Part shown: positions 1 through 49,867 of the stretch, one piece after another
How positions within the stretch are numbered: the first letter of the stretch is position 1
Layout of the letters: the number at the start of each line of letters is the position of its first letter
Sequence record: MK373778.1
From: Escherichia phage vB_EcoM_WFbE185
Length of the DNA stretch: 64,000 bases
Direction: 5' to 3' (one strand)
The notes under the pieces: model-generated
What the model saw: only the letters and a program-made list of their open reading frames with translations
Told to the model about the DNA's origin: nothing
Databases searched by the model: none
Translations under genes and position numbers: made by a program

Positions 1-2214
1 TTATTTGGCCGCTTCCACGGCCTTCATGAATTTAACGATTTGAGCGACCTGTTCTTTTGAAAGAGTACCACGTCGTCCCATGTATTCTGACACAATATGA
101 TAATTGGTTTCGAATTCAATAACCATTTTATCATCATTATCATAAGCATTATCTTTAAGCTTATCGAAAATTTTAGCACACAATTCTAACTTCTTATTCA
201 GGTCTGTATTAGTAGCACCTGCGAATCGATTCCATCCCCAACGATTATTTACTGTTGAGAGTTTTGCAAAGTCTTTACTGATTTCTTTGTTCTTAGAGCT
301 AAAATACTTACTAAGGAAGTTAAGCTCTTCATTACGAGTAATATGATTCAAATAAGGCTGTGCTCTACGACTTGGTGATACATACTCATCATAATCTACT
401 TTATCGATTAGCATAATATAGTCATTAATTGATTTTTCAAACAAACATTCTACTTCACCAAGTTTACGAACTTTCTTAGCAATCTGTGGACGGACTACAG
501 TGAACTCTTTAATACCTGACAAATCGGCAATACGGGTCAAGAAATTAGAGTCGTAGTTCAACCAACCTTTATCTGCGTCAAGACATTCAGCATTAGAACG
601 ATTACGAACTATAGCATAACCTTGGATTTCATCAGCTTCACTCGCTGGAATAAAGAGATCTTCCGATACCCAAACATCGTTTTCATTCTTAAAGAACCGA
701 TGAGCACTTGGGGATTTAGGACGAGGCCCATTAGAACGAGTCTTGACTTCAATCCATGGCTTAACGATTTGTAAAAGCTCTGAAGTCTTGTACATGTTAA
801 TGTTGTCGCCATCAAAGATAACTTTAAGGCGTTCCAGAAGTTTCATTGCATCTTCGTCTGTAGGGTCAACGAATAGTACGCTTTTACCAAAACCGCGTGG
901 AACTTTACCGGTTAATTTAACCTCGTCTTTAGACATTTCAATTGAATTAAGAGCTCGCATTAATGGAACGCGTCCCTTAACGTCGTCAATAACAATTTCA
1001 ACGTTTTTAATGTTAATGCCAATCAGACTGTTAATTGAAATAGTTGTCGATGAGCTACCACTTTCACGAATACGACGAAGACGAGGGGATTCAACGATAT
1101 CGTATACGACACCAAGATTACACCACTCAGGCCCCATTTTAAAACGTTTGTACAACTCAGAATAAGTTAGTTGTTCTTTAGAGTATTTCAGTGATTCAAT
1201 ATTAGACCCAGCCTTTTCCATGTATTTACGAGCGGTATAACCAAGAGAATCAATTTCACGGAACACATGACGCGGGTATTTACAATCAATCCATTTCTTA
1301 GAATCTTCAGCGAACAATTTAGCATCGATTTCTGCAACGCGTTTATGGATATTTGCTACTGTACGTTTATCAAATGACAATGCTTCACGAGACGGGGCTA
1401 CATCTAGTTCACCCATAGGGAATTTAATATAAGCTGTAGTGCATCGCGTCATCATCCATGTTTGTTCTTTAATAACACTTCCGATTGGATATACAATACC
1501 ACCATAAACAGCCATGATATTACCACGTTCACCCCATGGAGCTTCCTTGGCCAAATATACATCGTCAAATTCAGGAAAGTATTTAATATCTTTAACACCA
1601 CGAACTTCTGCAATATCACCTAGAGGACGCATAACATATGCAATTTCAGATGCGAACTTTTCAAAATCTTCTGGGTTAACAGGCACAACTACTTCAACGC
1701 CGGTCTGGTCATCAGGACCCATCTTATCTACAAAGGTCGGCTTAATTTGTGGACCCGTGTCATCTTGGTAGATTACGTAACCACGAACTTCACCGTTGTG
1801 ATAAGACGTAAGGTTAAACGTATCGGTATATGCTAGTGGAGCTTTAGAGCCGAGTCCGAATCCACCAATGAAATCGTTACTCGATGTTTTAGTTGAAGCA
1901 AAATATGAGTTATAGATTCCTGGCTCTTCGTCATTACCTCTAATGGTGAAATCGCTCATACCAGGACCAAAGTCTCGAACTACAAAACGTGGGTCCAAAC
2001 GACCTGGAGCCTGAACAATAAACTTATCGGTGCAACCATTAAGAATTTGTCCATCGATACAGTTTGTGATTAATTCACGTACACAAGCCAATTCTTTGTT
2101 TGTATAAAGGTCATTAGACAAAATCTTATAAACTTTGCTATTGCCTTGAATAGTGAATGCTGTGCTCTTACCGCCTGAACCAATAATCGTTTCTTTAGCC
2201 GTTTCAATAATCAT
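1..2214 (-). CDS. rIIA: rIIA protein (737 aa), GHKL/Bergerat-type ATPase-like N-terminal region
   Basis: Size and position match T4 rIIA (about 725 aa, next to gene 39 region); N-terminal motifs ELITNCIDG and DFGPGMS resemble ATPase N and G1 boxes. Confidence 0.8.
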   Translation of the reverse strand: MIIETAKETIIGSGGKSTAFTIQGNSKVYKILSNDLYTNKELACVRELITNCIDGQILNGCTDKFIVQAPGRLDPRFVVRDFGPGMSDFTIRGNDEEPGIYNSYFASTKTSSNDFIGGFGLGSKAPLAYTDTFNLTSYHNGEVRGYVIYQDDTGPQIKPTFVDKMGPDDQTGVEVVVPVNPEDFEKFASEIAYVMRPLGDIAEVRGVKDIKYFPEFDDVYLAKEAPWGERGNIMAVYGGIVYPIGSVIKEQTWMMTRCTTAYIKFPMGELDVAPSREALSFDKRTVANIHKRVAEIDAKLFAEDSKKWIDCKYPRHVFREIDSLGYTARKYMEKAGSNIESLKYSKEQLTYSELYKRFKMGPEWCNLGVVYDIVESPRLRRIRESGSSSTTISINSLIGINIKNVEIVIDDVKGRVPLMRALNSIEMSKDEVKLTGKVPRGFGKSVLFVDPTDEDAMKLLERLKVIFDGDNINMYKTSELLQIVKPWIEVKTRSNGPRPKSPSAHRFFKNENDVWVSEDLFIPASEADEIQGYAIVRNRSNAECLDADKGWLNYDSNFLTRIADLSGIKEFTVVRPQIAKKVRKLGEVECLFEKSINDYIMLIDKVDYDEYVSPSRRAQPYLNHITRNEELNFLSKYFSSKNKEISKDFAKLSTVNNRWGWNRFAGATNTDLNKKLELCAKIFDKLKDNAYDNDDKMVIEFETNYHIVSEYMGRRGTLSKEQVAQIVKFMKAVEAAK

Positions 2215-9632: not shown

Positions 9633-10946
9633 TCAAATAAAATGGACGTCAAACCGGCCACGAGTTGTGCCGACATACAATAACTGTTTAGCTAATTCTG
9701 AATCGGCATAATGGATACACGGTGTATAAACAAAGGCCGTGTCAACAGACATACCCTGGGCCTTATGGAAGGTTGATACTGGTAGTGCCTTCACCTTAGT
9801 GAACATACGTTTAGCATCCCAGAATTCGCTCCATGGAGCTTTACCACCTTTATTCCAGAATTTGTATGTTTCTGCGGTCTTAGCCAAAAACAAATTGAAT
9901 TTATAAAGCTCTTCTTCAGAAGAAATAACCTTTATATCTTCTCGGATATATTCTTCATCATCCCCATATGTTTCTACTGTAAGATTCCAGTATCGTATCA
10001 TATATTCGCCTGAAACGCCACGTGCTTTAACGAATGTAGACGTTTCTACAGCATCTCGAATACGAACGAATTGCCCGTTATTGAAAAGCATTTCAGTCAT
10101 ATTTTTGCCATCTAGCTTGTACGTCTTAGTAAACGGCTCTTGTAGAACAATGACTTCGTCTTTAATAAATGGTTTTTCTGTTTCAAGAAGTTTTCGGCGA
10201 ATAATTGAATTTAACTTGTCCACCGACTTATTTGTGAATGCCATCATTCGATTTTCGAAAAGGTCTTCAGGAGTTTTAACGACGTTAAAATAGTTCATCA
10301 TATACGATTTAAGGTCTGTATATCCATGAACACCGTGCCCATCAACTACTTTATCGTAAATCCATTTGCCATTACGAATATCAGTCGCAACATCAATAAT
10401 TGGTGCATTGCTACGTTTAACTTCTGTAAGGTTGCATTGCACGAAGTCTTTGTGAGTGAAGAAAGGACTTAGATACGCAGCTGATTCGCCTGGGTCTACC
10501 GGACGAATCTGGCATCGGTCACCAATTCCAATTACTGTGCACCATTTAGGGATACTAGCTAACATTATTTTAAACAGAGAACGGTCACACATTGACGCTT
10601 CATCAAATAACAGTACACGACACAAGGCTAAGTCGGGAACCTTTTTCTGTTCAAACAATACGTTTTCTTCGTATGTAGTTGGGTTGATTTTAAGAATGCT
10701 ATGAATAGTCGATGCTTCTTGACCGGCAAGTTTGCTTAGAACCTTTTTAGCAGCATGTGTAGGGGCTGCTAAAATAATACCTGATTCTCCGGCAGAAATA
10801 AGAGCTTCAACGATGAATCTAGTAAGGGTTGTTTTACCTGTACCAGCGGGCCCATTAATAGTTACGTGATGTTTCTTTTCTTTAATAGCGTTCATAACAA
10901 CGTTGAAGGCGTTTTTCTGACCTTCAGTCAAATCATCAAATGTCAT
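9633..10946 (-). CDS. dda: Dda DNA helicase (SF1)
   Basis: 437 aa; Walker A INGPAGTGKTT; size and context match T4 Dda. Confidence 0.85.
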   Translation of the reverse strand: MTFDDLTEGQKNAFNVVMNAIKEKKHHVTINGPAGTGKTTLTRFIVEALISAGESGIILAAPTHAAKKVLSKLAGQEASTIHSILKINPTTYEENVLFEQKKVPDLALCRVLLFDEASMCDRSLFKIMLASIPKWCTVIGIGDRCQIRPVDPGESAAYLSPFFTHKDFVQCNLTEVKRSNAPIIDVATDIRNGKWIYDKVVDGHGVHGYTDLKSYMMNYFNVVKTPEDLFENRMMAFTNKSVDKLNSIIRRKLLETEKPFIKDEVIVLQEPFTKTYKLDGKNMTEMLFNNGQFVRIRDAVETSTFVKARGVSGEYMIRYWNLTVETYGDDEEYIREDIKVISSEEELYKFNLFLAKTAETYKFWNKGGKAPWSEFWDAKRMFTKVKALPVSTFHKAQGMSVDTAFVYTPCIHYADSELAKQLLYVGTTRGRFDVHFI

Positions 10947-11254
10947 CGTAAAGTCCCTGCAATTGGAATACTAACAATACGGCCTGTGTCCAGAATTCGT
11001 TGATACAATCTTTGCGTCTCCGCATCTAGTTTAACGTGTTTCATTTCAAGCTTATTAAACCAAAACTTACGCGGAGTTTCGACCATTCTTAGAACTCCCA
11101 TTTTTAAATCTGTTTTATACTGTGTTTTCAAAGTATCGAAAACTTTATCTGCAATATCCTTTCTAAAAAATACTGCAGGACGATGCTCATCAAGTGGAAC
11201 CGGGACAGTAAATCCTTCCATATCTCGATAAACTATTGCATATACATAAACCAT
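10943..11254 (-). CDS. hypothetical protein (dda.1 position)
   Basis: 103-aa ORF overlapping dda start by 4 nt. Confidence 0.45.
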   Translation of the reverse strand: MVYVYAIVYRDMEGFTVPVPLDEHRPAVFFRKDIADKVFDTLKTQYKTDLKMGVLRMVETPRKFWFNKLEMKHVKLDAETQRLYQRILDTGRIVSIPIAGTLR

Positions 11255-11256
11255 AA

Positions 11257-12003
11257 TTAACCTTTAATCAGTTGGAATAATGATGCGCTAAGTGGTAAGC
11301 CACGTTTCAATTTTAATTTACCAATGAAACCAATCTTTTCAAAACGTTGCAGACCTTGGATAACTTTATCATATGTATCGAAAAGCGATTCAGCGTCAGT
11401 TAATTTAGTTTTAGTTTTCCAGTCAGAGCCTTTAAGAAGAACGTTGAGTTTAGTAAGTTCATGGCCTTCTGCTTGATGTGAGCCATTAATGCGTGCTTTC
11501 AAAGCAACAATTCTAAGTTTAGATTCGTTAGATAAAGGTTGATTTTTCATCATGTTCGCCATATGCTTAACACGATTTTCACGTTTTGCTCGTATTTTTA
11601 AAATAGTATCATAAACCTTTTTAATTTGGGCCCATTTCTTCTCGTCGAGATTAAGTTTCTCTACTTTACGGGCAGAAGGATTAGCAATACGTCTTGCAAC
11701 AGCGTCACGTTTCTCAATAAGTTCTTCTAATGTTAAATCAGAACGAGCCGTGTTATATTTTTTCTTAACTGGGATAACATTACCTTTAATGTAGCCGATA
11801 TCGTTATTAAAACGTTCTAAGGATAATTTCTCACCTTCAACAGAGTTATTGAAAGATTCGCCTGAGTAAGCGCAGACCTTTTGATCAAGAATGTTTTTAA
11901 GGTAATTAAAGTCTAAGTTAAAATCCTTAGAGCGTCTCTTCGCAGAAGCTCTGGTGTGGTCAAGACGACGATTGATTTTGTTAATTTTATTATTTGATAA
12001 CAT
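11257..12003 (-). CDS. basic hypothetical protein (248 aa), positional counterpart of T4 srd
   Basis: Size and position only; contains SLERFNNDIGYIKGNVIPV, which loosely resembles an HNH-like motif. Confidence 0.4.
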   Translation of the reverse strand: MLSNNKINKINRRLDHTRASAKRRSKDFNLDFNYLKNILDQKVCAYSGESFNNSVEGEKLSLERFNNDIGYIKGNVIPVKKKYNTARSDLTLEELIEKRDAVARRIANPSARKVEKLNLDEKKWAQIKKVYDTILKIRAKRENRVKHMANMMKNQPLSNESKLRIVALKARINGSHQAEGHELTKLNVLLKGSDWKTKTKLTDAESLFDTYDKVIQGLQRFEKIGFIGKLKLKRGLPLSASLFQLIKG

Positions 12004-27518: not shown

Positions 27519-27920
27519 TTATAGATTCGGTTTATATGATTTAAATGTTTCGAATTCGCCTTTATTCATAAGAGCTTTGAATTCGTCAGGACGCATAGCT
27601 TTGTCGTCGATAATCCAATCATATACTGGTTTATGTGTTAGCAAATTATGGTACTTCAAACCAATGTTTTCCAAGTTCTGAATCAGACTTGGGAGAATGT
27701 CAATTGCTATACGACCAGGACCTACTGACTTCATACCGCGAGCAGTGTAAAGCGTTATGGTATGCCCTGCATCATACAGGGCATTAATGGCAGACACCAT
27801 TTCGACGTCCGGTTTGAAGTTCACGTAATCACGATTGTTATTCCACTCTGTTATACAATCGTCGACATCAAAACAAAGATTAAGCATGTTTTCTACACGG
27901 TGCATTAGATTCGTTCCCAT
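27519..27920 (-). CDS. HAD-superfamily phosphatase (sugar-phosphate phosphatase-like)
   Basis: 133 aa; HAD motif I FDVDDCIT (DxD); small KdsC/GmhB-like size. Confidence 0.55.
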   Translation of the reverse strand: MGTNLMHRVENMLNLCFDVDDCITEWNNNRDYVNFKPDVEMVSAINALYDAGHTITLYTARGMKSVGPGRIAIDILPSLIQNLENIGLKYHNLLTHKPVYDWIIDDKAMRPDEFKALMNKGEFETFKSYKPNL

Positions 27921-29645
27921 TGATGAGTGATATCGCCACCGATTGGACGATAGGAAACACCAGTTTCTTTATCAGTTAGTACCCATTTACCAGGATTTTT
28001 TGTAATCAGAGTAGCCGTTACAGGTTCTGCTACGTCATAACTAATAGAGCCGTCCTGAAGTACACGGCCCATGTTACGTAATTGCTTAGTCAGAAGTTCC
28101 ATGCCTTTATAATATGCGGCTACAGCTTTAAGTGGATTATTCTTGAAATAACCACCTAATGCAATCCAGATAATTGCTACAGCCAAATGATGATATTCAT
28201 TAAACGAACTCAGCTTTCCATATTTGTAAACTAATGGATTGATGTTAATAGTCACATTACAAGTTGTTTCATCAATAGTAAACTGTCCCCAGGTCGGATT
28301 AGCGTTGAATTCATCATAACCTGAAACAGCATAAAGCACTTTAGCTTCATCATACAATTTTGGCCCGTAAATCTTGGTTTCGCCAAAATATCCACGAGGG
28401 TCGATAAACTTGACTTCGCCATTATCAGTAATCATAGTATTACTGAAGTTCGGGTCACCATGAATAACAGAGTACTGTCCCTGAGAACGGTTATGATAAC
28501 GAATAAGGTGTTCTAAAGCTTGTTTCAGCATTGGCTTCAGACGTCCAATCTTAGTGTAGTTCACGTGTGTGATTTTACCAAATGAATCAATCAATGGTTG
28601 AATGCTTTCACAACGATCAATAACTTTCGTATAGAATTCTTTAGTGAAATCACGACGAACAGTTTCAGGACTTACAAAATAAGTGTCTGTGCTGAATTTC
28701 AGTGCATCTAAAATCGCATCAACAATTTGTGGACGAGCAAGACTTGATTTGGATTTAATATATTCAAATGCTGGCTTACCTTTAATGCGTTCCATTTCAA
28801 AGTTATTTTCATTAACAGAAACTAACTGAGGAACTGAATCTGATTTCACTTTCAAATACCACGAAATCTCATCTTTCTGAAGAGCTCGACCCTGTTCGGT
28901 TAATGCGAATTTAGTTACAGTTTCTTCACCAATTTCAACTGCATTAAAACTACGATTAAGTTCACGAACTTCATGGGCTTTTTCAAGTTTAGGCATATCA
29001 CCTAAATCAATTAGATTCATAAGCTCTGATTTATTGAATGCGCTGCCGTAAAGGAATTCTACGAAATCACGTCCTTTGCAGTATTCATGAATTTCCTCAT
29101 CGGTAGAACCCATATAGAATTCCCAGTCTTTGAACTGATAAATTCCTACAACATTACCGCCTGTTTCACCTACATTAGTGATATTTTCACCATCGAAATT
29201 ATACCGACATTCATCACCCTTAACATAGATTGCGTTAACATTCCAAGACCATGAACCAAAATCGGGAATAATATCACACCAGTTAACAATTACGTTATGG
29301 CCGTCTAAATCTTTGTGTAATTTAGCAAGAGCATAAGCAGAACCGTATGCTTCATCAACTGTACGAATAGTCACATTGAACCCTTCTTGCTCACAATAAG
29401 CTCGCTTCATCAACTGTACGAATAGTCACATTGAACCCTTCTTGCTCACAATAAGCTCGAACAGTTTCAGCAAATTTTGAATGAACTACTACAATAATTT
29501 CATCTGCGCCAAGGTCAGAATAAATTGTATACAAATTGCTCAGAATAGTGTCTTGTTTATAGTTAACAAGCACCTTAGGAATATGATGCGTTATTGGATA
29601 TAAACGAGTTGCCAATCCAGCACCAAGAATAACAGCTTTTTTCAT
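27905..29645 (-). pseudogene. bifunctional sugar-1-phosphate nucleotidyltransferase / APH-fold sugar kinase, reading frame broken by a 55-bp tandem duplication
   Basis: N-terminal fragment (29391-29645) has the NTase signature ILGAGLATRL; C-terminal ORF (27905-29413) has kinase motifs HGDPNFSNTMI and FIDPRGYFG; both fragments contain RAYCEQEGFNVTIRTVDEA; deleting one repeat copy restores a 561-aa ORF. Confidence 0.65.
29350..29459. repeat. perfect direct tandem duplication, 2 x 55 bp (cttcatcaactgtacgaatagtcacattgaacccttcttgctcacaataagctcg)
   Basis: Two identical adjacent 55-nt copies at 29350-29404 and 29405-29459; 55 is not a multiple of 3, so the nucleotidyltransferase gene is frameshifted. 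Confidence 0.9.
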
Positions 29646-29686
29646 GTTGAAGTCCTCATTGGTAAGTAGGAGTATTGTACACTATT

Positions 29687-29830
29687 CTAGTTAAAGCATT
29701 CATACTTTGCTTGTAGTCCAATCATAATCCATCCAATTACAAGTGGTGGAATCATTACTGGAGCCGTTAAGCTCCAGTAGATAGTCATGACAAGCATCAA
29801 TAGTAAAAGTCCTATTGTTATTGCTTTCAT
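29687..29830 (-). CDS. small hydrophobic membrane protein (47 aa), not in ORF track
   Basis: MKAITIGLLLLMLVMTIYWSLTAPVMIPPLVIGW...; ATGA start/stop overlap with the SIS gene. Confidence 0.4.
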   Translation of the reverse strand: MKAITIGLLLLMLVMTIYWSLTAPVMIPPLVIGWIMIGLQAKYECFN

Positions 29831-30462
29831 TGTTCGCCTCGTAACATGGCACCTAGTGCACCGCCTGGATGGAACTTAAGGAAATCATTAGAGGTAAATC
29901 CACGTTCAGACGAAAGGTTGATAGCAAACGTATCGATAAGTGCTAACAACAATGTAGTAGACATTGTCGGAGCTAAAGAGTTCTCGTCAACTTCTACCGC
30001 GATACCGGTACAGAACGTATAATCAAAAAGAGCTTCGTATTCTTGTGGAATGTCAGGGTTACAATGTAACAGAATCTGTTTAACCTGAGGACGAATCATA
30101 CGAAGATGTTTAGCAACACCTATCATTTCTTCAGTCTTACCAGAACGGCTGATGTGAACTAATACATCATTAGGTGCAATAAATCCTGCGTCACCATGAG
30201 AATAATGCCCAGTGTTCAAGTACATACTTGGGATACCGAGTGAAGCAAAAGTCTCGGAAGCTTTAGTTGCGATATTAGCGTTCTTACCAACACCTGTAAT
30301 AATTACACGACTTTCATAATTACTCAGTCCAGGGCGACGAAGAGTTTCAAGAATAGCATTATACCGAGCAGGGTTTTGACTAATTACTTTAGCCATAGTG
30401 GCAAGAGATGAAGCTTGTTTTACGATTGCGTCAATAGCGATAGTGATTGGTGTAGTTTTCAT
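29827..30462 (-). CDS. SIS-domain sugar-phosphate isomerase (arabinose-5-phosphate/phosphoheptose isomerase-like)
   Basis: 211 aa; SIS signature VIITGVGKNANIA and SRSGKTEE. Confidence 0.65.
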   Translation of the reverse strand: MKTTPITIAIDAIVKQASSLATMAKVISQNPARYNAILETLRRPGLSNYESRVIITGVGKNANIATKASETFASLGIPSMYLNTGHYSHGDAGFIAPNDVLVHISRSGKTEEMIGVAKHLRMIRPQVKQILLHCNPDIPQEYEALFDYTFCTGIAVEVDENSLAPTMSTTLLLALIDTFAINLSSERGFTSNDFLKFHPGGALGAMLRGEQ

Positions 30463-30496: not shown

Positions 30497-30505
30497 ATTA
30501 TATCA
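30497..30505 (-). promoter_or_regulatory. extended -10 element TGA-TATAAT (the TG comes from the gene 43 stop codon)
   Basis: TATAAT abutting the polymerase TGA stop, about 35 nt upstream of the SIS gene ATG; no good -35. Confidence 0.35.
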
Positions 30506-33214
30506 AAAATCAAACATATCGAACAGAGATGCTTTCTTCTCGTAATCGAGTTTAGCTGCTGATGTGAATCCTTCAAGTGGTTTAATAAATGTCTTCTCAA
30601 GGAGAACAGTGTAGTCCATCCAATGAAGTACATCGTCTTTAATTAAATCTGTGATTTCAGTACCAGAAGGCCATGCGATACATTTATCACCGAACGGGTT
30701 TCCATCACGTAAAGGCAGAACGTATACCTTTTCGCCTTCTACAACTTGTGGAGCATCAATATTACCTTTGATAGCTCGGTTATATGTCAGAATTCCACGA
30801 ATATGGAACGGGCATTTAGGTCCTGGATATCCACCTACATCATATTTAGCAATGTTATTCGCAGAAGATACCGACGCGATGCTAATATAATTCAATTGAC
30901 GGAATTCTTTTTCAAACTCTTTAAAATATTCTTGTAATGATTCTTCACCTTCTTGAAGCATACGACGAATACATTCTTTAAGAGCTTTCTGTACTGCTTT
31001 AGGGGTCGAAGATTTCTGAGTTTCTAGACCCATGATTTTGAGTTTAGGCTCAGCGTAACGAGTACCTTCCATATCCCACACGTTTAATGCATAACGTTTC
31101 TTACCAGTCCAAAATCCGCCAATACCTTTAGAACCGAGCGGAGGACCAGCGATAGCTTCTCGGTCCATGAACATTAAGTGTTGTTTATTGTTCATGTATT
31201 CACACATTTCACGGAAACCTTTATCAATAGCTGGTTCCATACGTTCACGTGCAAACTTATCTAAGAAGTCTACCCAATGGTTGGTATCACGGAATTTAGA
31301 TTCACCAACCTTATCAATAATTTTATCCGCAGATACGTAAATGGAGTCTGTATCACCATAAAGAACGAAAGCTTCACCTTCTGTACCACAAACTTCATTC
31401 AGATATTCATTAACTTTACGTTCAATCCACTGTAAAGCCATTTGCCCGAATGTTGTGATTGCAGTAGCATTACGCAAATCATAATAACGGAACCAAACGT
31501 TGCCAAGTGCACCATAAAGTGAGTTGATGAGCAATTTACGGTTAATTTGTGCAGTCATACCTGCAACTTCAGTACGTTGAGCTCTAAACAACATTTCATT
31601 AAGAGATTTAGCAGACAACTTTTTAATCTTTTCTTTAATCTCATCGCTGAAGTCGAAACGATAATCAACATCTAATGGTTCGTCAACAGAAAGATTAGGA
31701 TTATGCAATGCCTCTTTAATTATTTCACCATTACGTTGAGCTGCAAGCATGTAACCTTTATGTTCTTTACGTTGATTAAAGACCTTAGTGATTTCAGTTG
31801 GAACTACACCATCACGGTCTTTATAATACATCATGCCGTTAGGAGAACAACTGTACACATCTGAAGGACGTTCAGCGATTGCGTTAATATAATCATGTAA
31901 TGGAGCTACTTTAAACGTTCCTGCTATTGTTTCTGGGCTAATATTCACTTGGCGAATGATGCTTGGATACAGAGATGTAAGGTCGAAACTCATTACATAT
32001 TTGTATCGATTTGGAATAGGTTCCTTAACAAAAGCGCCAGGATAAGGTTGAACCGGGTGAGAACGACCTTGTGGAATCACCTTGTTCTGCTCTTTAAGGC
32101 TATTAAAAATAATAGCATCCCATGTTTTAATTGGGCTAAACACAGATTGAATCTGTATCTTAGCATAATAACCCATGTCCAAACTCAAGTTGATGAACTG
32201 ACGCTTAGCATCAATTTGCAATACACGATACACGTCGATAATGTTATAAGAAATATATCGTTGGTGATTGCTTTCACGAAGCTTAGAAATAGGGCCGTCG
32301 TATTTCAGTTTACCAACGTTCAATTCAAATTCTGAAATGTAATCCAGAGAATACGACGGTTGATTGGTAAAAGAGAATTTTTTGTAAAGGTCAATGTAAT
32401 CAAGAACAGAGATACCGAACAATGTAATGATTTCACGAGAACCATACATGTTTTCGATAACTTTAACACGAGTTTTACGATGCGGTGATAAACGTTTCGC
32501 AGTAGATTCGCCAAAAATATTCTTGATTCGGTTATACACATATGGAATATCAAATGACTCAACGTTCCATCCAGTCAAAATGACAGGAGTTTTCTGTTGC
32601 CAGAAGTTGAGATATTCCATCAACAATTCTTTTTCGTTATTGAATGGCATATAAATGATTTTATCGATAATTTCGGATGGAACTTCATCACCGCCTTGTT
32701 CTTGAAGCTTAGCAGCGATTTCAATAGACCATTCTTCTACATTACCATACGGAGAATTCAAAAGGTCAAATACATAAAACCTGTCATCAATTGAGTCATA
32801 ATGGGTGATAGCATCAATCGGATGTTTTGCTTGTGACGGCTCAGGGAACCCATCCGGAGATGTTACTTCGATGTCGAAGTTAGCCACACGAATTTTTGTA
32901 TGGTCGTATTTGATTTCATAGTTATAAGTGTCAGACAAATACGCCAATTTGAAATCGTCCATGCCGAGTGCTTCAAGTCCGATATCTTCCATGCGTTTAA
33001 TCCATTGGGAGGCATCACGCATATTAGCGAACAACTTACGAGTACACGGCTTACCGTAGATATCGAAATATTTCGTAGCCTGACTTTCCGGACAATGAGC
33101 AAACAGTGATGGTTTATATTCTACTTCACGAGTACGTTCACGGCCATTAGAATCGATGTAACGTTCAAAAATTGAATCACCAATCTGTTCAACCGTTAAG
33201 TAAAATTCTTTCAT
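30503..33214 (-). CDS. 43: DNA polymerase gp43 (family B), 903 aa
   Basis: Exo motifs FDIEV and YNIIDV; pol motifs SLYPSII, KILINSLYG and YGDTDS; length and N-terminus MKEFYLTVEQIGDSIFERYIDSNGRERT match my recollection of RB69 gp43. Confidence 0.95.
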   Translation of the reverse strand: MKEFYLTVEQIGDSIFERYIDSNGRERTREVEYKPSLFAHCPESQATKYFDIYGKPCTRKLFANMRDASQWIKRMEDIGLEALGMDDFKLAYLSDTYNYEIKYDHTKIRVANFDIEVTSPDGFPEPSQAKHPIDAITHYDSIDDRFYVFDLLNSPYGNVEEWSIEIAAKLQEQGGDEVPSEIIDKIIYMPFNNEKELLMEYLNFWQQKTPVILTGWNVESFDIPYVYNRIKNIFGESTAKRLSPHRKTRVKVIENMYGSREIITLFGISVLDYIDLYKKFSFTNQPSYSLDYISEFELNVGKLKYDGPISKLRESNHQRYISYNIIDVYRVLQIDAKRQFINLSLDMGYYAKIQIQSVFSPIKTWDAIIFNSLKEQNKVIPQGRSHPVQPYPGAFVKEPIPNRYKYVMSFDLTSLYPSIIRQVNISPETIAGTFKVAPLHDYINAIAERPSDVYSCSPNGMMYYKDRDGVVPTEITKVFNQRKEHKGYMLAAQRNGEIIKEALHNPNLSVDEPLDVDYRFDFSDEIKEKIKKLSAKSLNEMLFRAQRTEVAGMTAQINRKLLINSLYGALGNVWFRYYDLRNATAITTFGQMALQWIERKVNEYLNEVCGTEGEAFVLYGDTDSIYVSADKIIDKVGESKFRDTNHWVDFLDKFARERMEPAIDKGFREMCEYMNNKQHLMFMDREAIAGPPLGSKGIGGFWTGKKRYALNVWDMEGTRYAEPKLKIMGLETQKSSTPKAVQKALKECIRRMLQEGEESLQEYFKEFEKEFRQLNYISIASVSSANNIAKYDVGGYPGPKCPFHIRGILTYNRAIKGNIDAPQVVEGEKVYVLPLRDGNPFGDKCIAWPSGTEITDLIKDDVLHWMDYTVLLEKTFIKPLEGFTSAAKLDYEKKASLFDMFDF

Positions 33215-45303: not shown

Positions 45304-47117
45304 TGGTGTTTAACCCTATGCATGATTTCTTTATTTTTACCGAGATTAAATCCGCGTTCGTTCGGATTTCCCAAATAACCGCATGTTCTTCTTATGGTGT
45401 TCATCTTTTTAGGATCAGTTTCTCCACAAATAGAACAAACAAATCCGTTTTCAGTAGGAGTCATTTCATGGGTACTTCCACATGTAAAACATTTATCCAC
45501 TGGCATATTAACACCAAAATAATCTAAATGTTGTGCAGCATAATCCCAGACGGCCTCAAGCCCCTTTAAATTGTTTTTCATATCTGGAAGTTCAACATAA
45601 GAAATGTGACCGCCGGTCGCTATGAAATGATAAGGAGCTTCACGAGAAATTTTTTCAAACGGAGTAATATTTTCTTCTACTGAAACATGGAAACTGTTAG
45701 TGTACCAGCCTTTATCTGTAACATCCTTTACACTTCCATATTTTTCTGTATCAAGTTTACAGAAGCGATAACAAAGGTTTTCAGCAGGAGTAGAATATAA
45801 ACTAAAAGCAAATCCAGTTCTTTCAGACCACTGTTTAAGATGAGCATTCATTTTAGTTAAAATTTCTTGCCCAATATCACGACCAACAAGAATATTCAAT
45901 TCGTGAATACCAATGTATCCTAAAGACACTGAACTTCTACCGTTTTTAAATAACTCAATTATGTCGTCATCAGGTTTAAGACGAACCCCGAATGCACCTT
46001 CTTGGTAAAGAATAGGAGCAACAGTCGCTTTAACTCCTTTTAAGGAACTAATTCTACACATCAAAGCTTCAAAACACAGGTCCATTCGTTCGTTAAATAG
46101 CTCAACAAATTTCTGTTCATTGAACTGTGTTCCAATATAAGAATCTAACGCAATACGAGGAAGATTCAGTGTTACAACACCAAGATTATTACGTCCATCA
46201 AGAATTTCATTGCCAGTCGAATCTTTCCATACACTCAAGAAACTACGGCAGCCCATTGGAGAAACAGGAACTGAAGAACCGGTAATAGCTTTATTATTCT
46301 TAACCGAAATAATGTCAGGATACATTCTTTTGCTTGCACATTCTAACGCAAGTTGTTTAATATCATAGTTCGGATCATCTTTATAAAGATTAACACCTTC
46401 TTCAACAAACATAACAAGTTTAGGAAAAATAGGAGTTATTCCATCACGACCAAGACCTTTAATGCGGTTTTTAAGAATTGCCTTCTGAATCATTCGTTCA
46501 GTCCAGTCAGTTCCCGTACCAAATGTAATTGTTACAAAAGGCGTTTGTCCGTTTGAACTAAAGAGAGTATTTACTTCATATTCATAAGCTTGGAACGCGT
46601 CATAGACATCTTTTTCTGTTTTGGATTGAGCATAATTCAACGCATCAGCAATTTGCCATTTTTCTGCATCTTCAACATGTTTAGCGTATGTGCGTTTAAC
46701 ATAAGGAGAAAGAACTTTATCGACATTCGCAAATGTAGTTCCGCCATACTGGTGTGAAGCAACTTGTGCGGTAATTTGTGCCATAATTGCAGTAGCAACG
46801 CCAATAGATTTAGGCGTTTCAATTTGAGCATTGCCTAATTTAAATCCATTCTCAAGCATCCCCTTTAAATCGACTAAACAGCAATTGGTAAACGGAAGAG
46901 CAGGAGAATAATCAATATCATGCATGTGAATGATTCCGCTTTCATGCGCATTCATAATAAAAGACGGGACCATATTTTTGGCAATGTGCTTAGACACAAT
47001 ACCAGCCATAAGGTCCCGTTGAGTTGGAAAAACACGAGAATCTTTATTAGCATTCTCGTTCAAAAGATCTTTATTAGTTTTATAAATTAATCCTTCAATT
47101 TCTTTTTCAATTTTCAT
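45300..47117 (-). CDS. nrdD: anaerobic ribonucleoside-triphosphate reductase NrdD (uninterrupted)
   Basis: 605 aa; C-terminal glycyl-radical motif RRTCGYLG and zinc ribbon CFTCGS...CSICG; no intron. Confidence 0.9.
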   Translation of the reverse strand: MKIEKEIEGLIYKTNKDLLNENANKDSRVFPTQRDLMAGIVSKHIAKNMVPSFIMNAHESGIIHMHDIDYSPALPFTNCCLVDLKGMLENGFKLGNAQIETPKSIGVATAIMAQITAQVASHQYGGTTFANVDKVLSPYVKRTYAKHVEDAEKWQIADALNYAQSKTEKDVYDAFQAYEYEVNTLFSSNGQTPFVTITFGTGTDWTERMIQKAILKNRIKGLGRDGITPIFPKLVMFVEEGVNLYKDDPNYDIKQLALECASKRMYPDIISVKNNKAITGSSVPVSPMGCRSFLSVWKDSTGNEILDGRNNLGVVTLNLPRIALDSYIGTQFNEQKFVELFNERMDLCFEALMCRISSLKGVKATVAPILYQEGAFGVRLKPDDDIIELFKNGRSSVSLGYIGIHELNILVGRDIGQEILTKMNAHLKQWSERTGFAFSLYSTPAENLCYRFCKLDTEKYGSVKDVTDKGWYTNSFHVSVEENITPFEKISREAPYHFIATGGHISYVELPDMKNNLKGLEAVWDYAAQHLDYFGVNMPVDKCFTCGSTHEMTPTENGFVCSICGETDPKKMNTIRRTCGYLGNPNERGFNLGKNKEIMHRVKHQ

Positions 47118-47587
47118 TTTAAACTCTTTCTAAGCTGCTTTTTGAATGAAGCTATTAATTGTGTTTTAGTATCAGATTCATTATATTCAAATCCTCTTTG
47201 AAGCATCTCGGACATCATTTCCTCTTTACCTAGTCTTGAGAACTCTTTAGTTTTGTCTGGAACAAAATTAGGATGGATATTATTATCAGAATAATCTTGT
47301 TTCAAATAAGCAAGAAGAGATTCAAGCCATTCGAGGTAGTCGACATCACGACCTTTAAGACCAGAACGGTTGAACTTATGCTTCATTTGGCCTTCTGCTG
47401 CGTTGCACAGATTACAGAGTAACCCACGAACTCTACCTGCTTTTGGCCCGTTTAATTCGTGGTCGTGGTCAAGATGGTTACCTTGAACATCAGGGTCTAA
47501 TTCACGGTGGCAAATAGGACACTTACCGTTCTGTGCATCATAAAATTTTTGTTTTTCTTCTTTGTATAATTTGCCAGATAATAACAT
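47114..47587 (-). CDS. 49: endonuclease VII (Holliday junction resolvase) gp49
   Basis: 157 aa; MLLSGKLYKEEKQKFYDAQNGKCPIC and HLDHDHELNGPKAG closely match T4 gp49. Confidence 0.85.
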   Translation of the reverse strand: MLLSGKLYKEEKQKFYDAQNGKCPICHRELDPDVQGNHLDHDHELNGPKAGRVRGLLCNLCNAAEGQMKHKFNRSGLKGRDVDYLEWLESLLAYLKQDYSDNNIHPNFVPDKTKEFSRLGKEEMMSEMLQRGFEYNESDTKTQLIASFKKQLRKSLK

Positions 47588-47593
47588 AATAAA

Positions 47594-47624
47594 CCCTTAC
47601 CATATATAGATAAGGGTATTTATA
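47594..47624 (-). promoter_or_regulatory. late promoter TATAAATA plus RBS-sequestering hairpin (CCCUUA...UAAGGG) upstream of gene 49
   Basis: TATAAATA box at 47617-47624; 6-bp inverted repeat whose 3' arm is the SD-like AAGGG 7 nt before the ATG. Confidence 0.55.
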
Positions 47625-47626
47625 AT

Positions 47627-47806
47627 TTAGTAAACGTTATAAAAGTCTCGATGAAAACGTTTATACTGTCGAATCATTCTTTTAGTAGGACGTGTTACCG
47701 AAATGATTGAAGTCCTCATGTTCGGATTGTTTGGAGCCCCAATCATAATAAATTTCCAGGATTTTTGGCCGTTTGTTCTTTCGCCATAAAATAGTTCAGT
47801 TTTCAT
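47627..47806 (-). CDS. small basic protein (59 aa) with RPTKRMIRQYKR motif, not in ORF track
   Basis: C-terminus TRPTKRMIRQYKRFHRDFY is paralogous to the C-termini of 19555-19791 and 48231-48401. Confidence 0.4.
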   Translation of the reverse strand: MKTELFYGERTNGQKSWKFIMIGAPNNPNMRTSIISVTRPTKRMIRQYKRFHRDFYNVY

Positions 47807-47815
47807 AATAAACCT

Positions 47816-48229
47816 TTAACTTAAACGTCTTTCTAAATATTCAATGTATTCCGCTGCGGCTTGCATCAGATTACCTTCATAACCGTCATTATTTTCTTGG
47901 GCGGCTAATTTAGCTAAAGCATAAGAAATACGTTCACCTTCGAATTCGCCAAGTCCACCATCACAAACTACTTGGTCAATTTCTTCGAGTTCATCTATTG
48001 AATGGGATTCCCAGAAGCACCAAAGAGAAGTATCACGGTCATAGATGCAAAGTTTCTCACCTGTGTTCAACATCACTTCAATAATGCCATGGTCGCCATA
48101 ACCATCTTCGGTAGTAGTACCAATTACCTTGATGATCGTATCTTTCTTTAATTCAGGAAACTTGACTTGTAGTTCTTCATCTTCTTTAACAATCTTGAAC
48201 CATTTACCGCGAGTTTCAGAAATATTCAT
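47816..48229 (-). CDS. hypothetical acidic protein (start moved to Met47)
   Basis: The track ORF N-terminus overlaps the upstream gene; position corresponds to the T4 pin region. Confidence 0.4.
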   Translation of the reverse strand: MNISETRGKWFKIVKEDEELQVKFPELKKDTIIKVIGTTTEDGYGDHGIIEVMLNTGEKLCIYDRDTSLWCFWESHSIDELEEIDQVVCDGGLGEFEGERISYALAKLAAQENNDGYEGNLMQAAAEYIEYLERRLS

Positions 48230-48230
48230 A

Positions 48231-48401
48231 TCAATATTCTCTATAAAAGTTACGATGAGAACGTTTAGCTTTGCGAAGCTGACGTTTAGTAGGACGAACT
48301 GTAAATGGTTGTCCAGAGAAAAAATTCGGATCGGTTTTAATAAGCAAATACCAATCATGCTTGCCATTTTTTAATAAACGGTACAATAATTTAACTTGCA
48401 T
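48231..48401 (-). CDS. small basic protein with RPTKRQLRKAKR motif (start moved)
   Basis: C-terminus VRPTKRQLRKAKRSHRNFYREY; promoter 48451-48480 upstream. Confidence 0.4.
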   Translation of the reverse strand: MQVKLLYRLLKNGKHDWYLLIKTDPNFFSGQPFTVRPTKRQLRKAKRSHRNFYREY

Positions 48402-48450
48402 AATAATCTCTTCCCATCTCCATATCAATTAATTCATTTATTGAAGGTTC

Positions 48451-48480
48451 ATCATAACACGTTTCTTCGTCGTTGTAAAC
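48451..48480 (-). promoter_or_regulatory. early-type promoter (-35 GTTTAC, 18 bp, TGt-TATGAT)
   Basis: GTTTAC...TGTTATGAT in the intergenic region. Confidence 0.45.
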
Positions 48481-48529
48481 TGTTTCGACGTCTGGCTCGA
48501 CTGTCTCCCATCGAGCCGAATACCATGGC

Positions 48530-48886
48530 TTAACCCCGGAGTTTATTGAGCTCTTCATAATCAATCCAGGATTCTAGCCCTGACGGCAGGTCACATTCAA
48601 TGTTCCACAGAAGCTCTTCAATGGCTTGCAGGCGATTATATTCTTCAACGGTAATGGTAACCATTGGTGCAACCGGTTCTGCCTTTTTAACCATCATGTC
48701 GTTCATCAGGACGTAAAGGTCATCACGAACGACAGTGTCGTTCCATCCCCATGATTTGGCTTCGTAAGCTAATGATGAAGGGAGCACATTTAAAACTTCA
48801 ATAATAGTTGGAGCATCAGGACCAAGTTCATTGGCACAAACTTCGTATACATCTTGGAAATCTTTAAGATTTAATGAATATGTCAT
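48530..48886 (-). CDS. hypothetical acidic protein (118 aa)
   Basis: ORF. Confidence 0.45.
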   Translation of the reverse strand: MTYSLNLKDFQDVYEVCANELGPDAPTIIEVLNVLPSSLAYEAKSWGWNDTVVRDDLYVLMNDMMVKKAEPVAPMVTITVEEYNRLQAIEELLWNIECDLPSGLESWIDYEELNKLRG

Positions 48887-48904
48887 TTAAAATTTTCTCG
48901 CAGG

Positions 48905-49201
48905 TTATTGTTCTACCCATGAACAAGAGACTTCAAAATCAGGACCACCGTATTCCCAGTGATATTCACCAACAGGAATCCAGTCACCGTGCTCGTTTTC
49001 TTCATAGTCCTCAGGCTCAAGGCCAACGAATCGCCATTGGACACCGATGATTCGATTACCCATCATTACTCGAAATTCGCCCCATGGATTATCGATAGCA
49101 TACTGAATATCGTTCTTGGCACGAGAGCACATTTCTTGATATAATAAAGCTTCTAATTCACCCTGGTCATAAGGGCCAGGGAAAGTTAAATCAATACTCA
49201 T
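48905..49201 (-). CDS. hypothetical protein (98 aa, Trp-rich)
   Basis: ORF. Confidence 0.45.
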   Translation of the reverse strand: MSIDLTFPGPYDQGELEALLYQEMCSRAKNDIQYAIDNPWGEFRVMMGNRIIGVQWRFVGLEPEDYEENEHGDWIPVGEYHWEYGGPDFEVSCSWVEQ

Positions 49202-49461
49202 TTAAAATATTCTCGTAGTTGGTCAAATCCACCAATGTGACTTCCGTCAGGAGCAAACACCTGAGGCATAGTCAATCCAACTTGTGATTCACGTCCAAGC
49301 TTAACCAGAAGCTCAGTAATTTTCTCATCATCGAACACACCTTTTTCCGGCATAACATTAATGAATTCGAATGGTTGTTTCTTAACAGTCAGCAATCGTT
49401 TCGCATTATCACAATAAATGCATTTATGAATAGTAGAGTCATACCCGTACACTTTAAACAT
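49198..49461 (-). CDS. nrdC: thioredoxin/glutaredoxin NrdC
   Basis: MFKVYGYDSTIHKCIYCDNAKRLLTVKKQPFEFINVMPEKGVFDDEKI nearly identical to T4 NrdC; CxxC active site; start set at Met6. Confidence 0.85.
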   Translation of the reverse strand: MFKVYGYDSTIHKCIYCDNAKRLLTVKKQPFEFINVMPEKGVFDDEKITELLVKLGRESQVGLTMPQVFAPDGSHIGGFDQLREYFK

Positions 49462-49867
49462 TATTTTTCCTTTCATCGATTAAATATGCAATGCCAAATA
49501 CAATACATGTAATAAAACCTGTGATACAGATAGAAACCAACAATACTGTACCAAAGAACCAAATCAAGTTATCTTTGGTAGTTTGTTTGATATCCATCTC
49601 ACGAATTTCTATAGCTATCGTATCACCTTTATTCAGAAGCGTATAAAACGATGGCGATACACGCCTGTCAAAAACTCGTCCTTGCTCATCTTTATAGACT
49701 GCAATAAATTCTAATTTAGAATATTTTCCTGTAGATTGGCCTGAGATTAATTCCACTACCTCCACAGGAATTACTTTAGTTTCCATGTAAGTATTCTGGC
49801 TGTTCCAAATGAATGGAATAATAGCAAAAACTAAAGCTGTGATAAAACAACGAAGGCTATATCTCAT
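49454..49867 (-). CDS. membrane protein (137 aa)
   Basis: N-terminal and C-terminal hydrophobic segments. Confidence 0.45.
   Translation of the reverse strand: MRYSLRCFITALVFAIIPFIWNSQNTYMETKVIPVEVVELISGQSTGKYSKLEFIAVYKDEQGRVFDRRVSPSFYTLLNKGDTIAIEIREMDIKQTTKDNLIWFFGTVLLVSICITGFITCIVFGIAYLIDERKNNV

What the first reader, a model, noticed from the sequence alone, without database searches (positions are those of the whole stretch)
29350..29459. Perfect 55-bp tandem duplication frameshifts the nucleotidyltransferase/kinase gene
Two identical, adjacent 55-nt copies sit inside the coding region. Because 55 is not a multiple of 3, the gene is split into an 84-aa N-terminal fragment carrying the GxGxR nucleotidyltransferase motif and a 502-aa remainder; the peptide RAYCEQEGFNVTIRTVDEA is encoded twice. 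Removing one copy restores a single 561-aa ORF. This is either a recent inactivating mutation (possibly abolishing DNA glycosylation), a slippage-prone heterogeneous site, or an assembly/sequencing artefact.
Basis: seen in the sequence. Interest (0 to 1): 0.8.

Follow-up and report, generated by a model that had tools for sequence, protein, structure and literature searches.

The report
Untrimmed assembler overlap, not a mutation
The perfect 55-bp tandem duplication that splits this phage's sugar-activating gene is almost certainly an assembly leftover (SPAdes run at k=55, circular contig re-opened without trimming its overlapping ends), so it is a database error and not a biological loss of DNA modification.

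Summary
Window 29349-29459 holds two identical adjacent 55-nt copies that split a minus-strand gene into 84-aa and 501/502-aa ORFs. Deleting one copy restores a 561-aa ORF.

The biological reading is not supported. The window is the first 64 kb of Escherichia phage vB_EcoM_WFbE185 (MK373778; the fragments are its CDSs WFbE185_00049 and _00048). The source paper states that Illumina data were assembled with SPAdes 3.12.0 "(55kmer)" into one contig, and that T4-like permuted genomes were then "arranged according to" published relatives. The window starts on the same base as the RB69 and MM02 records. A SPAdes contig of a circular assembly has k identical bases at both ends, so re-opening it without trimming gives a perfect k-bp tandem duplication.

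A prediction from this was met. The sibling record KAW3E185, from the same study, has its own perfect 55-bp tandem duplication at an unrelated site (10974-11083), which is single-copy in WFbE185, MM02 and RB69.

About 150 Mosigvirus records and 5 metagenome contigs all have one copy. No record carries the junction. Only 1 nt of microhomology flanks the repeat. The true gene is the known AfhE-like bifunctional arabinose-5-P kinase / UDP-arabinose pyrophosphorylase. Verdict: artefact (about 0.95), low interest.

The parts
29349..29403 (.). Copy 1 of the 55-nt unit GCTTCATCAACTGTACGAATAGTCACATTGAACCCTTCTTGCTCACAATAAGCTC. Inferred to be one end of the original SPAdes contig.
   Evidence: TRF, the repeat finder, string identity.
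29404..29458 (.). Copy 2 of the 55-nt unit, 100% identical to copy 1. Inferred to be the other end of the original contig, i.e. the untrimmed k=55 overlap. One of the two copies should be deleted.
   Evidence: k=55 is stated in the source paper.
29391..29645 (-). Artefactual 84-aa ORF, annotated as WFbE185_00049 (QBQ77554.1). It consists of residues 1-81 of the true protein plus SLL*.
   Evidence: PF00483, 1.6e-9; exact-sequence look-up names the record.
27905..29410 (-). Artefactual 501-aa ORF, annotated as WFbE185_00048 (QBQ77553.1). It starts at an out-of-frame ATG that the junction brings into frame, giving MK + residues 62-561 of the true protein. The mechanical TTG start at 29413 gives 502 aa.
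   Evidence: There is no Shine-Dalgarno-like sequence upstream (read directly from the sequence).
27905..29645 (-). True gene once one 55-nt copy is removed: 1686 nt, 561 aa. It is the AfhE-like / RB69 ORF53_52c bifunctional enzyme, with an N-terminal sugar-1-P nucleotidylyltransferase domain and a C-terminal kinase-like domain, in the NDP/UDP-arabinose pathway.
   Evidence: Homologues are single polypeptides of about 550-565 aa. Function is taken from PMC6024577 and PMC13326640.
27519..27920 (-). Intact neighbouring gene of 133 aa, the RB69 gp51 / AfhF-like phosphatase of the same pathway.
29827..30462 (-). Intact neighbouring gene of 211 aa with a SIS domain, the arabinose-5-phosphate isomerase (RB69 ORF055c homologue).
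   Evidence: (PF01380, 8.2e-10).
1..2214 (-). rIIA gene. Window base 1 is the last base of its stop codon and coincides with base 1 of the RB69 and MM02 records. This shows the record was re-opened to the reference convention after assembly.

Best explanation
The duplication is an assembly and finishing artefact in GenBank record MK373778 (Escherichia phage vB_EcoM_WFbE185). It is not a feature of the phage DNA.

T4-like phages have circularly permuted genomes, so a de Bruijn assembler returns a 'circular' path as one linear contig whose first and last k bases are identical. Here k was 55. The depositors then cut this contig at the rIIA stop codon to match published relatives and joined the old ends head to tail without removing one copy of the overlap. 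That leaves a perfect 55-bp tandem duplication wherever the contig ends happened to fall. In this case they fell inside the AfhE-like gene. Prokka then called two CDSs, of 84 aa and 501 aa.

What is shown: the repeat and its exact length; the record's identity; k=55 and the re-arrangement step in the published Methods; the shared start base with reference records; the same-length duplication in a sibling record; and the absence of the junction elsewhere. What is inferred: that WFbE185 itself was one of the Illumina/SPAdes genomes, because the platform is not listed per phage, and that the overlap was not trimmed.
For: 1. The source is identified by exact protein look-up. The 84-aa and 501-aa products are QBQ77554.1 and QBQ77553.1 of vB_EcoM_WFbE185, a 170,429-bp record. 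The accession is MK373778.
2. [quoted passage not shown]
3. The repeat period is exactly 55 and the copies are 100% identical.
4. Window base 1 is base 1 of RB69 AY303349 and of MM02 MK373784, at the rIIA stop codon. The record was therefore re-opened.
5. A prediction was tested and met. Sibling record KAW3E185 (MK373782, same study) has a private perfect 55-bp tandem duplication at 10974-11028 / 11029-11083, at the dda/dda.1 boundary. That site is single-copy in WFbE185, MM02 and RB69.
6. The artefact is documented independently. A T4-like phage assembled with the same SPAdes version had 55-bp overlapping ends, and one was trimmed before re-opening to the T4 reference (PMC8483715). [quoted passage not shown]
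7. The duplication is private to this record:
- All 60 listed relatives, of 153 that cover the locus, span 1846 nt against the 1901-nt query.
- A 40-nt junction probe finds nothing in 50,697 phage records. The same method retrieves exactly the one record carrying the KAW3E185 junction, which serves as a positive control.
- The junction is absent from metagenome contigs, where the unit occurs on 5 contigs, once each.
8. Only 1 nt of microhomology flanks the repeat.
9. Apart from the duplication the gene is undamaged. The repaired protein is identical to a protein on an independent Logan/ENA contig (P0121). It is also the only real gene of >=100 aa disrupted in the first 50 kb when compared with MM02.
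Against: No raw reads or independent assembly of WFbE185 could be reached. Its exact gp43 and Aat products are not in the contig index, and P0121 could not be looked up. The absence of junction-spanning reads is therefore inferred and not observed. The paper does not say which phages were sequenced with Illumina and which with PacBio. Not every sibling shows the artefact: the first 50 kb of MM02 and the whole MM01 genome have none. Real tandem duplications do occur in T-even phages, and loss of cytosine glycosylation is tolerated on permissive laboratory hosts (my own knowledge of T4 glucosyltransferase mutants).
Confidence: 0.95

Rival explanations
1. The phage stock carries a genuine, recent 55-bp tandem duplication that inactivates the AfhE-like enzyme. 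The phage would then package DNA lacking arabinosylated cytosine. The match to k=55 would be a coincidence.
For: The sequence as deposited encodes a frameshift inside the conserved nucleotide-binding core, which aligns to LicC 1jyk over residues 3-96, while the break is after residue 81. The copies are identical and the rest of the gene is intact, as expected for a very recent event. Modification-loss mutants are viable on permissive hosts (my own knowledge).
Against: The repeat length equals the stated assembler k. An independent 55-bp duplication sits at an unrelated site in a sibling record from the same pipeline. No relative and no metagenome contig has the duplication. Only 1 nt of microhomology flanks the repeat.
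Confidence: 0.03
2. The site is slippage-prone or a phase-variable (contingency) locus, where copy number of the 55-nt unit varies within the population and switches arabinosylation on and off.
For: Contingency loci have recently been proposed in T-even phages (bioRxiv 10.1101/2025.10.21.683753; abstract only, listed). A 55-nt unit is not a multiple of 3, so a copy-number change would toggle the reading frame.
Against: The ancestral sequence has no pre-existing repeat at this site. All ~150 relatives and 5 metagenome contigs carry exactly one copy, with no 2- or 3-copy variants. The flanking microhomology is only 1 nt. From my own knowledge, known contingency loci use short homopolymer or oligonucleotide tracts, not one 55-nt unit.
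Confidence: 0.01
3. The split is real and functional. The 84-aa and 501-aa polypeptides, which overlap by 19 residues, are both made, the second by re-initiation at the ATG 17 nt upstream of the first ORF's stop. They then reassemble into an active enzyme, or the kinase domain works alone.
For: The ATG at 29410 overlaps the end of the upstream ORF, so translational coupling is conceivable (read directly from the sequence). The C-terminal kinase-like domain is left intact.
Against: No Shine-Dalgarno-like sequence precedes the ATG. The break lies inside the Rossmann-like nucleotide-binding core and separates the N-terminal G-x-G...T-R loop from the rest of the domain. Every homologue listed is a single polypeptide of about 550-565 aa. 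RB69's apparent split of the same gene was shown to be a sequencing error, with a single 63.9-kDa product (PMC6024577). All the evidence for the artefact also applies here.
Confidence: 0.005

Closest known systems
SPAdes k-mer end overlap on circular or circularly permuted phage assemblies (assembly artefact)
   Same: The two ends of the contig are perfectly identical. The length equals the final k, which here is 55 as stated by the depositors. It occurs in a T4-like permuted genome assembled as one contig and then re-opened to a reference start. The same workflow with the same SPAdes version (3.12.0) gave 55-bp overlapping ends in T4-like phage 132 (PMC8483715). The 127-bp version is described in PMC5923482.
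   Different: In those reports the overlap was trimmed before the contig was re-opened. Here it was left in, so after rotation it sits internally as a tandem duplication inside a gene rather than at the record ends.
RB69 ORF053c/ORF052c split in GenBank AY303349
   Same: It is the same gene, it appears in a public record as two ORFs because of a record error, and the true product is one 561-aa protein (PMC6024577; PMC13326640). The 1-nt difference is visible at window ~28937 in my alignment.
   Different: The RB69 error is a single extra base from Sanger sequencing at the domain boundary, giving 221 + 346 aa. The WFbE185 error is a 55-bp duplicated assembler overlap inside the N-terminal domain, giving 84 + 501 aa.
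[quoted passage not shown]
   Same: The repaired ORF is 561 aa, with an N-terminal NTP_transferase domain and a C-terminal kinase-like region. It is 99% identical to the Mosigvirus cluster that includes RB69 ORF053c. It sits between the AfhF-like phosphatase and the arabinose-5-P isomerase.
   Different: Nothing distinguishes it once the artefact is removed. It is an ordinary allele, with 5 substitutions relative to Bas46.

Membership tests
Assembler k-mer overlap artefact (untrimmed ends of a re-opened circular contig) | The repeat length equals the assembler's final k | tested here: met
   The period is 55. The Methods of the source paper give SPAdes 3.12.0 '(55kmer)'.
Assembler k-mer overlap artefact (untrimmed ends of a re-opened circular contig) | There are exactly two adjacent copies and they are 100% identical | tested here: met
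   TRF reports 2.0 copies, 100% matches and 0 indels. String equality was checked directly.
Assembler k-mer overlap artefact (untrimmed ends of a re-opened circular contig) | The record was rotated or re-opened after assembly, so the old contig ends lie inside the record | tested here: met
   Window base 1 is base 1 of the RB69 and MM02 records, at the rIIA stop codon. The paper states that T4-like assemblies were re-arranged to match published relatives.
Assembler k-mer overlap artefact (untrimmed ends of a re-opened circular contig) | Other records from the same pipeline carry a duplication of the same length at unrelated positions | tested here: met
   KAW3E185 (MK373782) has a perfect 55-bp tandem duplication at 10974-11083, single-copy in WFbE185, MM02 and RB69. 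The first 50 kb of MM02 and the whole MM01 genome have none.
Assembler k-mer overlap artefact (untrimmed ends of a re-opened circular contig) | The duplication is private to the record and absent from all relatives | tested here: met
   with a positive control for the probe method.
Assembler k-mer overlap artefact (untrimmed ends of a re-opened circular contig) | No sequencing reads span the duplication junction | not testable with these tools
   No raw reads or independent assembly of WFbE185 could be reached.
Genuine slippage or recombination tandem duplication / contingency locus | Short direct repeats (microhomology) at the duplication end-points, or a pre-existing repeat tract | tested here: not met
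   The match extends 0 nt to the left and 1 nt to the right. There is no other repeat of the unit nearby.
Genuine slippage or recombination tandem duplication / contingency locus | Copy-number variation among related genomes or populations | tested here: not met
   About 150 Mosigvirus records and 5 metagenome contigs all have one copy.
AfhE-like bifunctional arabinose-5-P kinase / UDP-arabinose pyrophosphorylase (the underlying gene) | N-terminal sugar-phosphate nucleotidylyltransferase domain | tested here: met
   PF00483 at 8.5e-10 and 39.1 bits, above the cut-off of 21.2. PDB hits to LicC, UGPase and GMPP.
AfhE-like bifunctional arabinose-5-P kinase / UDP-arabinose pyrophosphorylase (the underlying gene) | C-terminal kinase (APH/choline-kinase-like) domain | tested here: inconclusive
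   There are only sub-threshold Pfam hits: Fructosamin_kin, EcKL and RIO1, at 16-18 bits against cut-offs of 20-22. More distant homologues carry PF01636 APH. A structural assignment is reported in PMC13326640.
AfhE-like bifunctional arabinose-5-P kinase / UDP-arabinose pyrophosphorylase (the underlying gene) | Single polypeptide of ~560 aa, in synteny with the AfhF-like phosphatase, the arabinose-5-P isomerase and the 5hodCMP synthase | tested here: met
   The repaired ORF is 561 aa. The neighbours are intact. The same gene order is seen in Bas46, RB69, MM02 and others.
AfhE-like bifunctional arabinose-5-P kinase / UDP-arabinose pyrophosphorylase (the underlying gene) | Enzymatic activities: Araf5P kinase and UDP-Ara pyrophosphorylase | not testable with these tools
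   Known only from the literature, for HY126 AfhE as cited in PMC13326640.

The most novel reading that the evidence does not exclude
The 55-bp duplication is really present in the WFbE185 stock and its match to k=55 is a coincidence. This would give a natural Mosigvirus isolate that has just lost NDP-arabinose synthesis and so packages un-arabinosylated 5-hydroxycytosine DNA. Such a loss might be selected by a host defence that targets arabinosylated DNA, for example GmrSD/BrxU-type enzymes, which PMC13390438 reports restrict the Mosigvirus phage NP and cleave modified phage DNA in vitro.
Probability: 0.03. Interest if true: 0.4.

Novelty: not a real feature. Interest (0 to 1): 0.05.

Why it matters
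The finding has no biological importance, but it is useful for database hygiene. GenBank MK373778 should be 55 bp shorter (170,374 bp), and WFbE185_00048 and _00049 should be merged into one 561-aa CDS. The two fragments have already spread into NCBI nr and UniRef as separate 'protein kinase domain-containing' and 'nucleotidyl transferase domain-containing' proteins. The sibling record MK373782 (KAW3E185) has the same defect at 10974-11083, which distorts its dda.1 annotation.

More generally, a perfect two-copy tandem repeat whose length is a common assembler k (55, 77, 99 or 127) inside a re-oriented phage or plasmid record should be treated as an artefact until reads show otherwise. Automated scans for 'frameshifted' or 'pseudogenised' phage genes should filter such cases out.

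Tried and rejected
1. Independent reads or assemblies of the same phage could not be reached. Exact-product look-ups of the 84-aa fragment, gp43 and the 299-aa Aat-like protein returned nothing. Because WFbE185's exact gp43 and Aat-like products are not on record, that contig probably comes from a different phage with an identical allele, so I dropped this route. The look-up through the neighbouring 133-aa phosphatase only returned three other NCBI phages, all with an intact gene of 561 or 562 aa.

2. The junction scan of viral contigs was negative but says nothing. The wild-type boundary 28-mer is also absent there, and only one Mosigvirus contig in that collection holds the unit (single copy).

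3. I looked for local structure that could promote a real duplication. There is only a 10-nt, 90% inverted repeat (AACTGTACGA / TCGAACAGTT) across the right boundary and a few short chance repeats. I rejected this as a mechanism.

4. I considered a generally noisy assembly and rejected it. In the first 50 kb, no other real gene of >=100 aa is broken relative to MM02. The indels relative to MM02 and RB69 look like ordinary divergence.

5. I considered that the window might be a laboratory escape mutant of a phage in the collection, and rejected it. The best match is only 98.4-99.0% identical.

6. The supplementary tables of the source paper give accession, size and coverage but not the sequencing platform per phage.

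7. Some fetched loci (L002, L004, L005, L016, L017) never appeared in the Python sandbox. The JK45 comparison was therefore dropped, and KAW3E185 was checked with the repeat, TRF and alignment tools instead.

Full report
**Observation.** The repeat is exactly as described. TRF reports a single array at 29349-29459 with period 55, 2.0 copies, 100% matches and no indels. It is the only tandem repeat of score >=50 in the whole window, and the only perfect tandem duplication of period 20-400. Positions 29349-29403 and 29404-29458 are identical. The match extends 0 nt to the left and 1 nt to the right. The gene lies on the minus strand. ORF 29391-29645 (84 aa) carries the start of an NTP_transferase domain (PF00483, 1.6e-9). 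ORF 27905-29413 (502 aa from a TTG start, 501 aa from the ATG at 29410) carries the rest. Both encode RAYCEQEGFNVTIRTVDEA. Deleting one copy gives a 561-aa ORF with 5 substitutions relative to the Bas46 homologue.

**Context.** The window is a Mosigvirus, an RB69-like T-even phage. gp43 DNA polymerase is at 30503-33214, a SIS-domain arabinose-5-phosphate isomerase at 29827-30462, and a phosphatase at 27519-27920. The interrupted gene is the homologue of RB69 ORF53_52c, also called gp52:53. Thomas et al. showed that the RB69 GenBank split of this gene into ORF053c and ORF052c was a one-base sequencing error, and that the product is a single 561-residue, 63.9-kDa protein (PMC6024577). A 2026 NAR paper describes it as the counterpart of HY126 AfhE. 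That enzyme is bifunctional, with a C-terminal kinase (Araf5P to Araf1,5P) and an N-terminal UDP-arabinose pyrophosphorylase, and it supplies the sugar for arabinosylated 5-hydroxycytosine (PMC13326640). The repaired protein hits PF00483 above threshold and kinase families below threshold. Its N-terminal core aligns to LicC 1jyk over residues 3-96. Its homologues in many phage genera are single polypeptides of about 550-565 aa.

**Comparison with relatives.** Megablast of 27800-29700 finds 171 phage records. All 60 listed span 1846 nt against the 1901-nt query, exactly 55 fewer. A 60-nt junction query matches relatives only as two pieces folded back onto one copy. A 40-nt probe with 20 nt on each side of the junction, which cannot seed in a single-copy genome, finds nothing in 50,697 records. 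The same kind of probe built for another junction retrieves exactly the one record that carries it, so the method works. The junction 28-mer is absent from metagenome contigs, where a 31-mer internal to the unit occurs on 5 contigs, once each. The viral contigs negative is uninformative, because that collection holds only one Mosigvirus contig with the unit.

**Identifying the source.** An exact-sequence look-up shows that the 84-aa and 501-aa products are QBQ77554.1 (WFbE185_00049) and QBQ77553.1 (WFbE185_00048) of Escherichia phage vB_EcoM_WFbE185, a 170,429-bp record. The accession is MK373778, with 189.9x coverage. The exact repaired 561-aa sequence also exists on an independent Logan/ENA contig (P0121). 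So apart from the duplication, the allele is an intact natural one.

**The key evidence.** The source paper (Korf et al. [quoted passage not shown] In line with this, window base 1 is the same base as position 1 of the RB69 and MM02 records, the last base of the rIIA stop codon. A de Bruijn assembler returns a circular path as a linear contig whose two ends share k bases. For a T4-like phage assembled with the same SPAdes version, the ends overlapped by 55 bp, and one end was trimmed before the contig was re-opened to the T4 reference (PMC8483715). [quoted passage not shown] Re-opening such a contig without trimming puts a perfect k-bp tandem duplication at the old ends.

**Prediction and test.** If the pipeline left overlaps untrimmed, sibling records should carry 55-bp duplications at other, arbitrary positions. 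In the first 50 kb of KAW3E185 (MK373782, same study), the repeat finder and TRF report a period-55 array at 10970-11083. In the correct phase, 10974-11028 and 11029-11083 are identical. The site is at the dda/dda.1 boundary, and it is single-copy in WFbE185, MM02 and RB69. The first 50 kb of MM02 and the whole MM01 genome have no such repeat. That fits the study's mixed use of PacBio and Illumina, or trimming in some records. Two private, perfect tandem duplications of exactly 55 bp, at unrelated sites in two records from a pipeline run at k=55, are not credibly biological.

**Other considerations.** The end-points share only 1 nt of microhomology, and there is no pre-existing repeat at the site. 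This argues against slippage or a contingency locus. The rest of the assembly is clean: this is the only real gene of >=100 aa broken in the first 50 kb relative to MM02. If the lesion were real it would inactivate the enzyme. The break after residue 81 lies inside the nucleotide-binding core, and the downstream ATG has no Shine-Dalgarno sequence. That argument is moot if the lesion is not in the DNA.

**Limits.** I could not reach reads or an independent assembly of WFbE185, and the paper does not list the sequencing platform per phage. The conclusion that no reads span the junction is therefore an inference, although a strong one.

**Verdict.** The feature is not real biology, and the underlying gene is an ordinary, already characterised member of the AfhE / RB69 gp52:53 family. 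The practical outcome is a correction to two GenBank records and a filtering rule for future scans. Confidence in the artefact is about 0.95, and interest is about 0.05.

Noticed in passing
L016 (MK373782.1, phage KAW3E185) 10974-11083: The sibling record from the same study has its own perfect 55-bp tandem duplication, at the dda/dda.1 boundary. The annotated dda.1 CDS (10970..11308) is displaced and altered compared with MM02 (10945..11256, overlapping dda by 4 nt). It is the same artefact, and that record needs correcting too.
   Followed up: yes
L003 (AY303349.1, RB69) 28094-29780; corresponds to window ~28937: The RB69 reference record still annotates this same gene as two ORFs (ORF052c and ORF053c). 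The cause is a single extra base, visible as a 1-nt indel in my alignment. Thomas et al. 2018 showed by re-sequencing that this base is an error.
   Followed up: yes
window 47000-49600 versus L006 (MM02) 47065-49600: The nrdD / endonuclease VII region is rearranged relative to MM02. MM02 ORF 47065-47898 (-) has no counterpart in the window, and the alignment breaks into short blocks of lower identity (92-95%). In JK45 and KAW3E185 this region holds homing or intron endonuclease genes, so the cause is probably presence or absence of a mobile endonuclease.
   Followed up: no
proteins P0085, P0088, P0089, P0092, P0096, P0107: Distant cellular homologues of 890-955 aa combine NTP_transferase, HAD-phosphatase and SIS domains in one polypeptide. 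That places the phage's three separate pathway enzymes (AfhE-like, AfhF-like phosphatase, arabinose-5-P isomerase) in a single protein. One of them has a eukaryotic transcriptome source. Thomas et al. 2018 noted a Butyrivibrio protein that combines an ORF53_52c-like region with a C-terminal SIS-like domain.
   Followed up: no
window 29357-29366 / 29457-29466 (also 29412-29421): A 10-nt, 90% complementary inverted repeat (AACTGTACGA / TCGAACAGTT) bridges the inside of the 55-nt unit and its right flank. It is probably chance and is not needed for the explanation.
   Followed up: partly
window 29408-29410 (minus strand ATG): The start codon of the annotated 501-aa fragment is an ATG that is out of frame in the native gene (within ...GTTGATGAAGC...). 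The duplicated junction brings it into frame. This explains why Prokka could call a second CDS with no ribosome-binding site.
   Followed up: partly
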